Assembly (NCBI RefSeq): GCF_056712565.1
Contig: NZ_CM160072.1
Length of the DNA: 64,000 nt
Strand: one strand, 5' to 3'
The notes under the pieces were generated by a model. The model saw only the letters and a program-made list of their open reading frames with translations, did no database searches and was not told the origin of the DNA. Of the stretch, positions 15,843-18,545 are shown piece by piece (within the stretch, counting starts at the first letter, position 1; each line of letters begins with the position of its first letter). The translations under genes were made by a program, and so were the position numbers.

Positions 15843-18545
15843 TTATTGCTTAGTAAACGGCGCGAAGATTTCGCTAAATGCGTACTTCGGTGCCTGTTCT
15901 TTAGTCAGGCCGTGGAATTCCGGAGACAGGTTAGTGCCGCCTGGCAGGTCGCGCGCGATTGACCAGATACCAACCATACCGAGATTACGCTTCTGCGCAT
16001 CCTGCATGACCAGACGAGCATCAGAGAGATAGAACACCTCGCCCTGAACGTCGTTCACGCCAACCATCGGCGTGGTACCCATCATAGCGTCAATTTCTGC
16101 ATCGCTCTTGTTGGGATGGAGGCCTTTCAATTGTGAATGCAGGTTGGCAATCGCAGACGTTGCACACTTACCGTGAATGTTCTGGCCTTCGGTATTTGCA
16201 GACTGACAAATCGCGTTACCGTAGTCCATTGTCATCACGTTCACACCCGCCAGCTCAACACCTTTCGCTTTGGCATCGCTCAGGACATTCATCCCTTCCG
16301 GCGTCAGGCCTGTCGGCAGAATTGGCAAGGTATACCAGATAGCAATATCTTTGCCTTCTGACTTCCATTTATCCTGCACTTTCTTCACAGCAAGGTTACG
16401 ACGTTCAATAGATGCCTGATCCGCAACCCAGGTGCCTTCGATATCGAAGTCCAGGACTCTGAGGTTCAGGTTATCAACGATGTCATAATAATGCTGCATT
16501 AGATCGTCAACGTTCTTACAGGAAGCTGCCAGCGGGGCATTATTAGCACCACCGATAGACAGCATCACATCACCGCCAGCCTCACGCAGAGCTTTGATTT
16601 TGCTGTACTGAGCGTAATTCTGCATACCGTAAGCGGTACCCCATGTCGGTAGACAGGTGTTCGCATCTTTACTCACCACAAACGCCAGCGTGAAGTGGTT
16701 GACGTTATGACTCTTAGCCAGCGCAGCCAAATCCGGGATCGTATTCAGCGTAAAGTCGACATACGGTGCATAAACGTGTTTCGGCCACGCTTTCTTCGGC
16801 GTACCTACGCGCTCTTTGGTTCCGGTCCAGTCAACAAAAACACGCCACGGGTTGCTGTCAGAAGGAGAAACTTTCTGCACTTTACTCTGAGAAATGTAGT
16901 TCTCACCGTTAAAGCGAATCAGCGTATCACTGGCATAAAGCGTTTCTGGATTAAACTGCGGCGCATTATTCAGCTCTTCGTTGCTATAGCTCTGAGTCTT
17001 ACCTAACGGCTTCCACGGGCGACTATTGCTACCGGTGGCGTTTTGGTTCGCAATCAGAGCAGGGTTGTCACTTTGCGTCCAGAACAGCGCTTCATAAGCC
17101 TGCCCATCAACAACAACGCGATCACCTTTCACGTACACGGTGGAAGCGGACCATGCTTTCGCCGGTTCGTATTTCTTCCACGGGTTATCGCCGCCGGGGA
17201 CAAAGCCCCATGCGTCTTGATCGACAGAGGTTTTATAATGTGCATCGTTATAATCTACGATGCTGTTCGCGCTGTACGCTTTGCTGGCCTGGAAACCATC
17301 CGCAATAATGACGCCGCCATTATCAATTTCACAGGTAGTCGGGTTACCGTACTGACTCATTTCCGCAGCGGTAGCTGTACGCACGAGGCGCCATGGGTTA
17401 TTGGAGTTTTCTACACTGGTGCCACGCGGGCAATCTTCAGAACCAACCCACCAGGCATTCTGATAAACATTACCATTGAAGATAACATGGTAAATTTCGC
17501 TGCCTTCCTGGCCACTCCACGCCTGCAGTGAGTAATCGTTACTGCTATCCGCTGGTGTTGATGGCTCGTTGTTATCCGGAGTTGGAGTAACTGGAGTTTC
17601 CGGTGTTTCCGGAGTTGGATCAACCGGAGTCACAGCACCGCCATTATTATCCGGCTTAACGGAACAGGAGGCTGGGTTACCATACTGAGTGATTTCTGTT
17701 GCCGTTGCCGCGCGAACATAACGCCATGGGTTGCTGGCATCGTTTTCTTTCGCATCGCCTGGGCAATTTGCCGCGCCCACCCACCAGGCGTTCTTATAAA
17801 TGCCGCCGTTGTAGATAACGTACCATGTAGAAGAACCTTCCTGACCTTTCCAGGCTACGACAGCATAGTTGTCGTTTGACTTATCAGCTGGGGCTGGCTG
17901 AACATCAGGAGCCGGTTTAACGTCCGGTGCCGGTTTCACATCCGGTGCAGGCTGTGGTGCTGAAGTACAAGACTGTGGATTACTGGTTTCTGAGATTTCC
18001 GTTGCCGTAGCGGCACGAACATAACGCCATGGGTTGCTGGCATCATTGCCTTTCGCATCACCCGGGCAGTTAGAAGAGGCTACCCACCAAGCATTTTTAT
18101 ATACCGCACCATTAAAGACGACATACCAGGTTTGACCGCCCTGCTGTTTATTCCAGGCAACTACAGAAGAATTAGACGGAACAGTGCCCTGTGCTGGTGT
18201 AGCCGAAGCGCCATTAGCGGGCGTATTAGATGCTGGCGTATTTGAAGTTGAAGAAGATGAGCTTCCGCTCTTTTCGCAGGAAAGTGTATTGCCAAACTGA
18301 CTAATTTCAGCAGCTGTTGCGGTACGCTTTAAACGCCACGGGTTAGTTGCATCATTTGCTTTCGCTTTTCCCGGGCAATTTGTAGAAGAAACCCACCAGG
18401 CATTTTCATAAATTTTGCCATCGAAAATAACCTGATATTTATTACCACCTTGTTGGTTATTCCATGCTTCCATTGCCAATGCTGGCAGAGCGGAACACAC
18501 CAGCCCCATACCAATCATAGATTTAGTAAATATATTTAATTTCAT
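15843..18545 (-). CDS. chiA: Periplasmic endochitinase ChiA (secreted by the Gsp type II system)
   Basis: 900-aa ORF with signal peptide, repeated chitin-binding modules (AWWVxxxNCPG) and GH18 C-terminal domain. Confidence 0.9.
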   Translation of the reverse strand: MKLNIFTKSMIGMGLVCSALPALAMEAWNNQQGGNKYQVIFDGKIYENAWWVSSTNCPGKAKANDATNPWRLKRTATAAEISQFGNTLSCEKSGSSSSSTSNTPASNTPANGASATPAQGTVPSNSSVVAWNKQQGGQTWYVVFNGAVYKNAWWVASSNCPGDAKGNDASNPWRYVRAATATEISETSNPQSCTSAPQPAPDVKPAPDVKPAPDVQPAPADKSNDNYAVVAWKGQEGSSTWYVIYNGGIYKNAWWVGAANCPGDAKENDASNPWRYVRAATATEITQYGNPASCSVKPDNNGGAVTPVDPTPETPETPVTPTPDNNEPSTPADSSNDYSLQAWSGQEGSEIYHVIFNGNVYQNAWWVGSEDCPRGTSVENSNNPWRLVRTATAAEMSQYGNPTTCEIDNGGVIIADGFQASKAYSANSIVDYNDAHYKTSVDQDAWGFVPGGDNPWKKYEPAKAWSASTVYVKGDRVVVDGQAYEALFWTQSDNPALIANQNATGSNSRPWKPLGKTQSYSNEELNNAPQFNPETLYASDTLIRFNGENYISQSKVQKVSPSDSNPWRVFVDWTGTKERVGTPKKAWPKHVYAPYVDFTLNTIPDLAALAKSHNVNHFTLAFVVSKDANTCLPTWGTAYGMQNYAQYSKIKALREAGGDVMLSIGGANNAPLAASCKNVDDLMQHYYDIVDNLNLRVLDFDIEGTWVADQASIERRNLAVKKVQDKWKSEGKDIAIWYTLPILPTGLTPEGMNVLSDAKAKGVELAGVNVMTMDYGNAICQSANTEGQNIHGKCATSAIANLHSQLKGLHPNKSDAEIDAMMGTTPMVGVNDVQGEVFYLSDARLVMQDAQKRNLGMVGIWSIARDLPGGTNLSPEFHGLTKEQAPKYAFSEIFAPFTKQ

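What the first reader, a model, noticed from the sequence alone, without database searches (positions are those of the whole stretch)
17592..17960. Short proline-rich tandem repeats in ChiA linkers
The linkers between chitin-binding modules contain PAPDVKPAPDVKPAPDVQPAP and TPETPETPVTP, encoded by near-identical 9-18-bp DNA repeats. The ORF is 900 aa versus the 897 I recall, which could reflect one extra 3-aa repeat unit, but I cannot confirm the reference repeat count from memory.
Basis: partly seen in the sequence, partly recalled or inferred. Interest (0 to 1): 0.2.

Follow-up and report, generated by a model that had tools for sequence, protein, structure and literature searches.

The report
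Known repeat-length variant in ChiA linkers
The short proline-rich repeats are real spacers between the binding modules of the E. coli chitinase ChiA, and the extra three amino acids compared with strain K-12 are an ordinary, already published strain-group difference with no sign of functional consequence.

Summary
Observation and interpretation both hold. The window is E. coli. The 900-aa minus-strand ORF 15843-18545 is chiA, 100% identical to the type strain ATCC 11775. Two inter-module linkers carry degenerate in-frame tandem repeats: 18 bp x ~3 (PDVKPA units) and 9 bp x ~3 (TPE/TPE/TPV). K-12 ChiA (897 aa) lacks exactly one 9-bp unit (TPETPVTP vs TPETPETPVTP).

Of 5,426 complete E. coli genomes, about 3,120 carry chiA. 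About 37% of these have the window-length linker and about 63% the K-12 length. Rare alleles show occasional slippage:
- linker 2 with four units (17 genomes, two independent duplications) or two units (29 genomes);
- linker 1 with a third SNxPA unit (25 genomes);
- complete loss of the TPE block between 11-12-bp direct repeats (2 genomes, on different haplotypes).

All changes are multiples of 3. AlphaFold2 gives pLDDT below 50 only in the three linkers and the signal-peptide region. A three-module ortholog has Pro-rich linkers of unrelated sequence.

The indel is already published as "ins315_317 PET" (PMC6393329): B2/D-associated, absent from A/B1, not linked to the AIEC phenotype. It is ordinary, low interest and already known.

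The parts
15843..18545 (-). chiA (yheB) CDS, 900 aa, bifunctional chitinase/lysozyme, B2/LF82-type allele
   Evidence: ORF. 100% identical over 2703 bp to chiA of ATCC 11775. Pfam CBM_5_12 and GH18. Q362/E370/V378/V388/E548.
17532..17663 (-). Linker 3 (aa 295-338) between N-terminal modules 3 and 4; Pro/Thr-rich, predicted disordered
   Evidence: 23% Pro, 82% P/T/S/A/D/E/N. pLDDT <50 at 297-337. No conservation after the module's second Cys.
17583..17615 (-). TPETPETPVTP repeat block (9-bp units ACTCCGGAA / ACACCGGAA / ACTCCAGTT, then ACTCC)
   Evidence: TRF 17593-17616, period 9; codon view.
17592..17600 (-). The 9 bp (GAA ACT CCA, aa 316-318) present here and absent in K-12. Placement within the repeat is ambiguous. 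Equals the published 'ins315_317 PET'.
   Evidence: Alignment with K-12; PMC6393329 Table 2.
17608..17619 (-). Upstream copy of the direct repeat TCCAACTCCGGA flanking the TPE block
   Evidence: Read directly from the sequence. The deletion alleles L006 and L007 retain a single copy.
17575..17586 (-). Downstream copy of the direct repeat TCCAACTCCGGA flanking the TPE block
   Evidence: Same as above.
17865..17963 (-). Linker 2 (aa 195-227) between modules 2 and 3; Pro-rich, predicted disordered
   Evidence: 27% Pro; pLDDT <50 at 195-225.
17892..17945 (-). Three 18-bp units encoding PDVKPA / PDVKPA / PDVQPA
   Evidence: TRF 17901-17948, period 18, score 68; codon view. Two-unit and four-unit alleles exist in other genomes.
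18165..18275 (-). Linker 1 (aa 91-127) between modules 1 and 2; Ser/Thr/Ala/Pro-rich, with SNTPA x2 at 18213-18245
   Evidence: Composition; pLDDT <50 at 91-119. A three-unit allele (SNTPASNAPASNTPA) occurs in 25 genomes.
17328..17531 (-). N-terminal module 4 (aa 339-406; 'CBD4' of the literature), carrying Q362, E370, V378, V388
   Evidence: Module alignment. PDB 6ogd_C / 9c4k_C Chi2 N-terminal domain, E=6e-14, TM 0.81.
17664..17864 (-). N-terminal module 3 (aa 228-294)
   Evidence: Module alignment; AF2 pLDDT 74-91 with the same beta-beta-beta-alpha topology.
17967..18164 (-). N-terminal module 2 (aa 128-193)
18276..18470 (-). N-terminal module 1 (aa 26-90), following the signal peptide

Best explanation
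These are low-complexity, proline-rich spacer segments that tether the four small N-terminal carbohydrate-binding-type modules of the secreted E. coli chitinase/lysozyme ChiA. Each spacer is encoded by a short, degenerate, in-frame tandem repeat. Occasional replication slippage, or deletion between short direct repeats, adds or removes whole units. ChiA therefore exists in E. coli as a small series of length alleles (889, 894, 897, 900 and 903 aa). The window carries the common 900-aa allele of phylogroup B2/D-type strains, the same haplotype as the LF82 'pathogenic' ChiA, which has one more TPE unit than K-12. Shown here: the repeats, the indel, the allele frequencies, the in-frame nature, the position between folded modules, and the predicted disorder. 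Inferred: that the spacers act as extended, protease-resistant tethers giving the modules independent reach, and that a +/-3-6-residue change is functionally near-neutral.
For: The locus is chiA, in tufA-chiA-bfd-bfr-gsp synteny. One 9-bp unit separates the 900-aa and 897-aa proteins. In 3,121 chiA-bearing complete genomes, about 1,160 have the window-length linker 3 (>=95% identity, same span) and about 1,958 the 9-bp-shorter K-12 length (89-91% identity from the gap, spans 112/108 vs 121/117). Rare alleles: 17 genomes with four PDVKPA units, arising by two different duplications (unit 1 in LSN03, unit 2 in MB51); 29 with two units; 25 with a third SNxPA unit in linker 1; 2 with the whole TPE block deleted between the direct repeats (T/C)CCAACTCCGGA, once on each haplotype. 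Every variant is a multiple of 3 bp. Frameshifts in two chiA pseudogenes lie elsewhere, at gene positions 1538-1628 and 2160. Linkers are 11-27% Pro and 73-86% P/T/S/A/D/E/N, against 6.7% Pro for the whole protein. Module conservation ends at the second Cys. AF2 pLDDT <50 occurs only at 17-29, 91-119, 195-225 and 297-337. Ortholog P0013 (74% identity, three modules) has Pro-rich linkers of unrelated sequence and length, and more distant homologs have one module and short Gly-rich spacers. The literature lists ins315_317 PET in 0% of A/B1, 87% of B2 and 100% of D strains, with 68% vs 64.7% in AIEC vs non-AIEC, not significant (PMC6393329).
Against: No experiment here or in the papers read isolates the effect of linker length, so near-neutrality is an inference. 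The indel is in tight linkage with the substitutions in module 4 that are reported to change CHI3L1/mucin binding (PMC11486038). Whole-allele swaps therefore do not separate the two. The census classes rest on identity bands plus the spans of the listed rows, not on inspection of every genome, and a four-unit TPE allele would hide in the 90-95% band. The ancestral state could not be determined because no true outgroup was found.
Confidence: 0.9

Rival explanations
1. Linker length is an adaptive tuning knob. The extra TPE unit directly upstream of module 4 changes the spacing or reach of the binding modules and contributes to the stronger host-glycan (CHI3L1, mucin) binding of the B2/LF82-type 'pathogenic' ChiA.
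For: The insertion sits about 20 residues upstream of module 4, which carries four of the five 'pathogenic' substitutions, and the window has all five. It is almost perfectly linked to that haplotype (B2 87%, D 100%, A/B1 0%). Recombinant LF82-type vs K-12-type ChiA compared in PMC11486038 were whole-gene alleles, so they presumably also differed by the insertion if LF82 ChiA is 900 aa; that is inferred from the published numbering, as the LF82 sequence was not examined. Linker copy number has changed repeatedly.
Against: [quoted passage not shown] The literature attributes the phenotype to the five substitutions. Three residues in a 44-residue disordered spacer is a small change. Linkage with the haplotype is what ordinary phylogroup divergence predicts, since the gene is 97.0% identical between the types.
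Confidence: 0.06
2. The repeats form a contingency (phase-variation) locus, in which slippage switches ChiA expression on and off.
For: Tandem repeats in a gene for a secreted, host-interacting protein. chiA pseudogenes exist in some genomes.
Against: Unit lengths are 9, 15 and 18 bp, and every observed variant is in frame. There are at most 3-4 degenerate units, not a long homogeneous tract. The frameshifts in the pseudogenes map outside the repeats. Non-standard copy numbers are found in only about 1.5% of genomes for linker 2.
Confidence: 0.01
3. The 3-aa difference is an assembly or sequencing artefact, or a chance repeat of no biological reality.
For: The 9-bp array scores only 41 in TRF, a level reached about once per 64 kb in simulated sequence.
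Against: More than 1,000 independent complete genomes share the window-length allele, and about 1,950 share the shorter one. The same indel was found by Sanger sequencing of PCR products (PMC6393329).
Confidence: 0.01

Closest known systems
ChiA polymorphism 'ins315_317 PET' of E. coli (Camprubi-Font et al. 2019, PMC6393329, Table 2)
   Same: It is the same indel: three residues (PET/TPE/ETP, depending on register) present in B2/D-type ChiA and absent in K-12. The same linked substitutions also occur (S326N, V335S, K362Q, K370E, A378V, E388V, L396M, V414I, D427N), all of which the window carries.
   Different: Nothing about the main allele differs. The paper does not describe it as a repeat-unit change, and does not report the rarer alleles found here (linker 2 with 2 or 4 units, linker 1 with 3 units, full TPE-block deletion).
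Pro/Thr-rich interdomain linkers ('PT boxes') of secreted cellulases and chitinases, e.g. Cellulomonas fimi CenA/Cex (from my own knowledge); an example seen here is the (TP)n linker of GH18 homolog P0024
   Same: Low-complexity Pro-rich spacers between a carbohydrate-binding module and its neighbour. They are disordered or extended, conserved in composition but not in sequence, and variable in length.
   Different: ChiA's linkers are short (33-44 aa), use mixed units (PDVKPA, TPE, SNTPA) and not long (PT)n runs, and connect binding modules to each other, not a binding module to the catalytic domain.
In-frame coding tandem repeats (VNTRs) of bacterial surface or secreted proteins, as used in MLVA typing (from my own knowledge)
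   Same: Head-to-tail units of a multiple of 3 bp whose copy number differs among strains through slippage.
   Different: Very low copy number (2-4) and degenerate units, so variation is rare (about 1.5% at linker 2) or fixed by lineage (linker 3). It is a poor typing marker beyond separating B2/D-type from A/B1-type chiA.
N-terminal domain of Yersinia entomophaga toxin-complex Chitinase 2 (PDB 6ogd / 9c4k chain C)
   Same: Homologous to the modules that the linkers connect: 45% identity, E=6e-14, TM 0.81 to the predicted module 4.
   Different: Chi2 has a single copy, lacks the two cysteines, and has no Pro-rich repeat array.

Membership tests
E. coli ChiA (YheB) bifunctional chitinase/lysozyme, B2/LF82-type allele | Near-identity to annotated chiA, and position between tufA and bfd-bfr next to the gsp (T2SS-alpha) cluster | tested here: met
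   100% over 2703 bp to chiA of ATCC 11775. Annotated order tuf-chiA-bfd-bfr-gspO..gspC-gspAB-rpsJ.
E. coli ChiA (YheB) bifunctional chitinase/lysozyme, B2/LF82-type allele | GH18 catalytic domain plus CBM5/12 repeats | tested here: met
   Pfam PF00704 (E=1.4e-10) and PF02839 (E=5.6e-13; three stretches in 411-584). PDB GH18 chitinases match at E down to 8e-47.
E. coli ChiA (YheB) bifunctional chitinase/lysozyme, B2/LF82-type allele | Residues Q362, E370, V378, V388, E548 (the 'pathogenic polymorphism') and the 3-aa insertion ins315_317 | tested here: met
   All five residues are present in 900-aa numbering, and the insertion is present. Definitions are from PMC11486038 and PMC6393329.
Pro-rich interdomain linker of secreted glycoside hydrolases | Lies between independently folding modules | tested here: met
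   Four ~66-aa modules with 22 invariant positions. Conservation ends at the second Cys. AF2 folds each module (pLDDT 74-93) with the same topology.
Pro-rich interdomain linker of secreted glycoside hydrolases | Low-complexity, Pro-enriched composition, predicted to be unstructured | tested here: met
   11-27% Pro vs 6.7% overall, and 73-86% P/T/S/A/D/E/N. pLDDT <50 and no secondary structure at 91-119, 195-225 and 297-337.
Pro-rich interdomain linker of secreted glycoside hydrolases | Composition but not sequence conserved in orthologs; tolerant of length change | tested here: met
   P0013 linkers are Pro-rich but unrelated in sequence and length. Length alleles of 889-903 aa are annotated as intact CDS.
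Pro-rich interdomain linker of secreted glycoside hydrolases | Physically extended or flexible tether; protease resistance | not testable with these tools
   Needs SAXS/NMR and limited proteolysis.
Coding VNTR (in-frame tandem repeat with copy-number polymorphism) | Head-to-tail units, a multiple of 3 bp, with copy number differing among strains | tested here: met
   TRF arrays. Linker 3: three length classes. Linker 2: 2, 3 or 4 units. Linker 1: 2 or 3 units.
Phase-variable contingency locus (simple-sequence repeat switch) | Repeat-number changes shift the reading frame or promoter spacing, giving on/off expression | tested here: not met
   All variants are in frame. Pseudogene frameshifts lie outside the repeats.
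CBM5/12 chitin-binding module (for the four N-terminal modules the linkers connect) | Match to the family profile (Pfam PF02839) | tested here: not met
   No Pfam hit for modules 1-4 even at E<=10.
CBM5/12 chitin-binding module (for the four N-terminal modules the linkers connect) | CBM5/12 fold and core motif | tested here: inconclusive
   hhalign of modules vs ChiA's own CBM5/12 repeats gives probability 60%, E=8e-5. After Chi2, Foldseek hits are almost all CBM5/12 domains (2d49 TM 0.56, prob 0.94; ChiB, chitin deacetylase, Chi60, CjLPMO10A CBM5), but each with E of 0.1-3.
CBM5/12 chitin-binding module (for the four N-terminal modules the linkers connect) | Binds chitin | not testable with these tools
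   The literature calls them chitin-binding domains 1-4. Binding by the individual modules was not verified here.

The most novel reading that the evidence does not exclude
Linker copy number is a selected variable. The extra TPE unit next to module 4, and the recurrent gains and losses in linkers 1 and 2 (which co-occur in one B2 lineage as +15 bp and -18 bp), adjust the spacing of the binding modules and so contribute to host-glycan avidity. Part of the 'pathogenic ChiA' effect now ascribed to five substitutions would then be due to linker length.
Probability: 0.05. Interest if true: 0.3.

Novelty: already known. Interest (0 to 1): 0.08.

Why it matters
It matters little. It explains why ChiA residue numbers in the AIEC/Crohn's literature (362, 370, 378, 388, 548) are offset by three from K-12 coordinates (359, 367, 375, 385, 545). 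It also warns that whole-allele comparisons of 'pathogenic' and 'non-pathogenic' ChiA differ by a linker unit and about 15 other substitutions besides the five named ones. The rare alleles give a small natural series (889-903 aa) that could be used to test whether linker length affects a multi-module glycan-binding enzyme.

Tried and rejected
1. NCBIfam gave no hit for ChiA.
2. Counting rare alleles by query coverage failed, because overlapping BLAST pieces are joined into one place, so three-unit alleles 'covered' a four-unit query at 100%. This was solved with strict E-value cut-offs that only a full-length single alignment reaches.
3. The search for homologous proteins with the module-and-linker region was swamped by low-complexity words and returned mostly E. 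coli fragments.
4. The search for an outgroup to polarise the indel failed. A degenerate-codon scan of species representatives found only a 'Citrobacter sp.' MAG contig that encodes an E. coli B2-type 900-aa ChiA with gsp genes, probably mis-binned. The ancestral state is unresolved.
5. Low et al. 2013 is not held in the library, and no supplementary alignment was available.
6. I suspected that the search under-sampled genomes, because a query containing bfd hit only 3,160 genomes. A tufA-anchored query hit 5,425 of 5,426, so this was rejected. The missing genomes have a 77%-identical bfd-bfr that megablast cannot seed.
7. I suspected the gspE stop codon was an artefact. This was rejected because 18 other genomes share it.
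8. The antisense ORFs inside chiA (16695-17006 and 17043-17531, plus strand) were set aside without a test, as they lie wholly inside the chiA coding sequence.
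Full report
**What is at the coordinates.** The finding lies on the minus strand inside a 900-aa ORF (window 15843-18545), flanked by bfr on one side and tufA/fusA on the other. The ORF is chiA (yheB), the E. coli bifunctional chitinase/lysozyme. It is 100% identical over 2703 bp to chiA of the type strain ATCC 11775 and 97.0% identical to K-12-type chiA. Pfam finds CBM_5_12 and GH18. In the identical type-strain record the annotated order is tuf-chiA-bfd-bfr-gspO...gspC-gspAB-rpsJ.

**Observation check.** The translation contains PAPDVKPAPDVKPAPDVQPAP (aa 199-219) and TPETPETPVTP (aa 311-321). TRF reports an 18-bp array at 17901-17948 (2.7 copies, score 68) and a 9-bp array at 17593-17616 (2.7 copies, score 41). 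In 40 simulated windows of the same dinucleotide composition, arrays scoring >=41 occurred about once per 64 kb and arrays scoring >=68 never. The real window has 10 and 2. The 18-bp array is therefore clearly non-random. The 9-bp array is marginal on its own and is validated by its polymorphism. The units are degenerate, not near-identical: 12-15/18 and 4-8/9 identical, differing mostly at synonymous sites.

- K-12 MG1655 chiA is 2694 bp / 897 aa (also given as 897 aa in PMC3950696).
- The only length difference is one 9-bp unit: K-12 ...GAA ACA CCG GTG ACC CCA... versus window ...GAA ACA CCG GAA ACT CCA GTT ACT CCA... That is TPETPVTP versus TPETPETPVTP.
- The adjacent codons also differ synonymously (GTT ACT vs GTG ACC). 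The indel is therefore an old haplotype difference, not a fresh slippage event.
- The other 20 differences between the two proteins are substitutions.

**Population picture (5,426 complete E. coli genomes).** A tufA-anchored query hits 5,425 genomes, so the searches are exhaustive. About 3,120 genomes carry the chiA linker region.

| Linker | Allele | Genomes | Notes |
|---|---|---|---|
| 3 (TPE) | window length | ~1,160 (37%) | includes ST131, UTI89, Nissle 1917, NC101, ATCC 25922 |
| 3 (TPE) | 9 bp shorter (K-12 length) | ~1,958 (63%) | includes K-12, REL606, ATCC 8739, ETEC, some STEC |
| 3 (TPE) | whole block deleted (VDPTPD, 889 aa) | 2 | between direct repeats TCCAACTCCGGA / CCAACTCCGGA, once on each haplotype, so two independent events |
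| 2 (PDVKPA) | three units | nearly all | |
| 2 (PDVKPA) | four units (903 aa) | 17 | perfect duplication of unit 1 in LSN03 and of unit 2 in MB51 |
| 2 (PDVKPA) | two units | 29 | e.g. strain 1105, 894 aa |

All variants are multiples of 3 bp. The frameshifts in two chiA pseudogenes lie outside the repeats.

**Are these really linkers?**
- The four N-terminal modules (~66 aa) share 22 invariant positions, including two cysteines and the NAWWV and NPWR motifs. Conservation stops right after the second Cys.
- The intervening segments are 11-27% Pro and 73-86% P/T/S/A/D/E/N, against 6.7% Pro overall.
- An AlphaFold2 model built on an 82-sequence alignment (mean pLDDT 81.8) has pLDDT <50 only at 17-29 (signal-peptide region), 91-119, 195-225 and 297-337. 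None of these has secondary structure, while each module folds with the same beta-beta-beta-alpha topology.
- Ortholog P0013 (74% identity, three modules) has Pro-rich linkers of unrelated sequence and length. Homologs at 47-65% identity have one module and short spacers.
- The four-module array with its Pro-rich repeats is therefore an expansion seen only in E. coli-type ChiA among the homologs examined.

**What the modules are.**
- Pfam does not recognise modules 1-4.
- They are homologous to the N-terminal domain of Yersinia entomophaga toxin-complex Chitinase 2 (PDB 6ogd/9c4k chain C; E=6e-14; TM 0.81 to a pLDDT-93 model).
- A profile comparison with ChiA's own CBM5/12 repeats is weakly positive (probability 60%, E=8e-5).
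- After Chi2, the Foldseek list is almost entirely CBM5/12 chitin-binding domains, each at a weak E-value.
- The literature calls them chitin-binding domains 1-4 (PMC11486038). 'Chitin-binding modules' is a reasonable but not proven label.

**Mechanism.**
- Most likely (about 0.9): the segments are extended, disordered tethers that let the binding modules act independently. Their repetitive coding sequence occasionally gains or loses whole units by slippage, or by deletion between short direct repeats. The resulting few-residue length changes are near-neutral.
- Shown here: the repeats, the indels, their in-frame nature, the allele frequencies, the position between folded modules and the predicted disorder.
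- Inferred: the tether function and the neutrality.
- Phase variation is excluded, because the variants are in frame and the units are few and degenerate.
- An artefact is excluded by the population data and by the published Sanger sequencing.
- An adaptive role for linker length cannot be excluded but has no support.

**Comparison with what is known.**
- The indel is already published. PMC6393329 Table 2 lists 'ins315_317 PET' relative to K-12 in 0% of phylogroup A and B1, 87% of B2 and 100% of D strains. It occurs equally in AIEC and non-AIEC (68% vs 64.7%, NS).
- It travels with S326N, V335S, K362Q, K370E, A378V, E388V, L396M, V414I and D427N, all of which the window has.
- The window therefore carries the LF82-type 'pathogenic polymorphism' (Q362, E370, V378, V388, E548; PMC11486038).
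- The published residue numbers are in 900-aa numbering. K-12 has the corresponding residues three positions earlier.
- The main texts of both papers never use the words 'linker' or 'tandem repeat', but the polymorphism itself is not new.
- The rarer alleles described here appear unreported in the papers I could read. They are minor.

**Verdict.** The feature is real, correctly interpreted, ordinary and already known. Interest is low.

**In passing.**
1. About 42% of complete genomes (O157:H7, O26, O103 and others) lack chiA and gspC-M altogether. Similarity ends about 52 bp after tufA (window ~18785) and resumes near window 2119. Their retained bfd-bfr is only 77% identical to the window's.
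2. Relative to the ATCC 11775 record, the window has nine differences in about 62.5 kb, five of them disruptive:
   - nonsense codons in gspE (TAG at 7412-7414) and gspL (TAG at 13433-13435);
   - frameshifts in argD and php;
   - a 72-bp in-frame deletion in kefB.
3. The gspE stop is shared by 18 genomes of the APEC O1 / O1:K1:H7 group. The cognate type II secretion system for ChiA is therefore probably defective in this strain.

Noticed in passing
window 7412-7414 (gspE) and 13433-13435 (gspL): In-frame stop codons in two essential genes of the T2SS-alpha operon next to chiA: gspE Ser137 TCG->TAG and gspL codon 277 TAG. Both genes are intact in the otherwise near-identical ATCC 11775 record. 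The gspE stop is shared exactly by 18 complete genomes (APEC O1, O1:K1:H7 and O2:K1:H7 strains). The system reported to export ChiA is therefore probably non-functional in this strain.
   Followed up: partly
window ~2120-18784 (gspB...gspO, bfr, bfd, chiA): The whole tufA-rpsJ interval is dimorphic in E. coli. About 2,290 of 5,426 complete genomes (O157:H7, O26:H11, O103 and others) have only bfd-bfr plus a short prepilin-peptidase gene there, with no chiA and no gspC-M. All share a junction about 52 bp after tufA. Their bfd-bfr is only 77% identical to the window's, far below normal E. coli core divergence, which suggests an ancient alternative haplotype or a replacement.
   Followed up: partly
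window 37935 (argD), 51924 (php), ~28730-28737 (kefB); also 36166 (yhfK), 48634 (yhfS), 3998 (gspA), 37536 (intergenic): Compared with the ATCC 11775 record, the window has a 1-bp deletion truncating argD (stop at aa 294 of 406), a 2-bp deletion truncating php (stop at aa 30 of 292), and a 72-bp in-frame deletion in kefB between 8-bp direct repeats. It also has two missense changes (YhfK T249P, YhfS A266V), one synonymous and one intergenic change. Together with the two gsp stops, five of nine differences are disruptive. Whether these are real mutations of a sister strain or assembly errors is unresolved.
   Followed up: partly
25 genomes have a third unit (SNTPASNAPASNTPA), mostly the same B2 lineage that has lost one PDVKPA unit in linker 2.
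   Followed up: yes
window 10842-10888 (gspI, plus strand): The highest-scoring tandem repeat in the window (18 bp x 2.6, 96% matches, TRF score 87). It encodes [15 protein letters not shown] inside the minor pseudopilin GspI (131 aa here). From memory, K-12 GspI is 125 aa, which would fit one extra 6-aa unit. This was not checked.
   Followed up: no
proteins P0001, P0002, P0003, P0005, P0009 (database fragments of E. coli ChiA): ChiA variants lacking one or two whole N-terminal modules, with junctions inside homologous module sequence or between linkers 1 and 3; P0001 stands for 82 member sequences. They could be real recombination between the ~300-bp module repeats. All are on short contigs, though, so assembly collapse is equally likely.
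   Followed up: no
L016 (DXKH01000010.1, 'Citrobacter sp.' MAG), 4334-7036: A contig binned as Citrobacter encodes a 900-aa ChiA essentially identical to the E. coli B2-type allele, next to gspK/gspL. It is probably an E. coli contig mis-binned into the MAG.
   Followed up: no
window 25318-25358 (fkpA 3' end, minus strand): An 18-bp x 2.2 repeat (TRF score 61) encoding the Ala/Lys/Pro-rich C-terminal tail of FkpA (APKADAKPEADAKAA). This is another low-complexity tail encoded by a short repeat.
   Followed up: no
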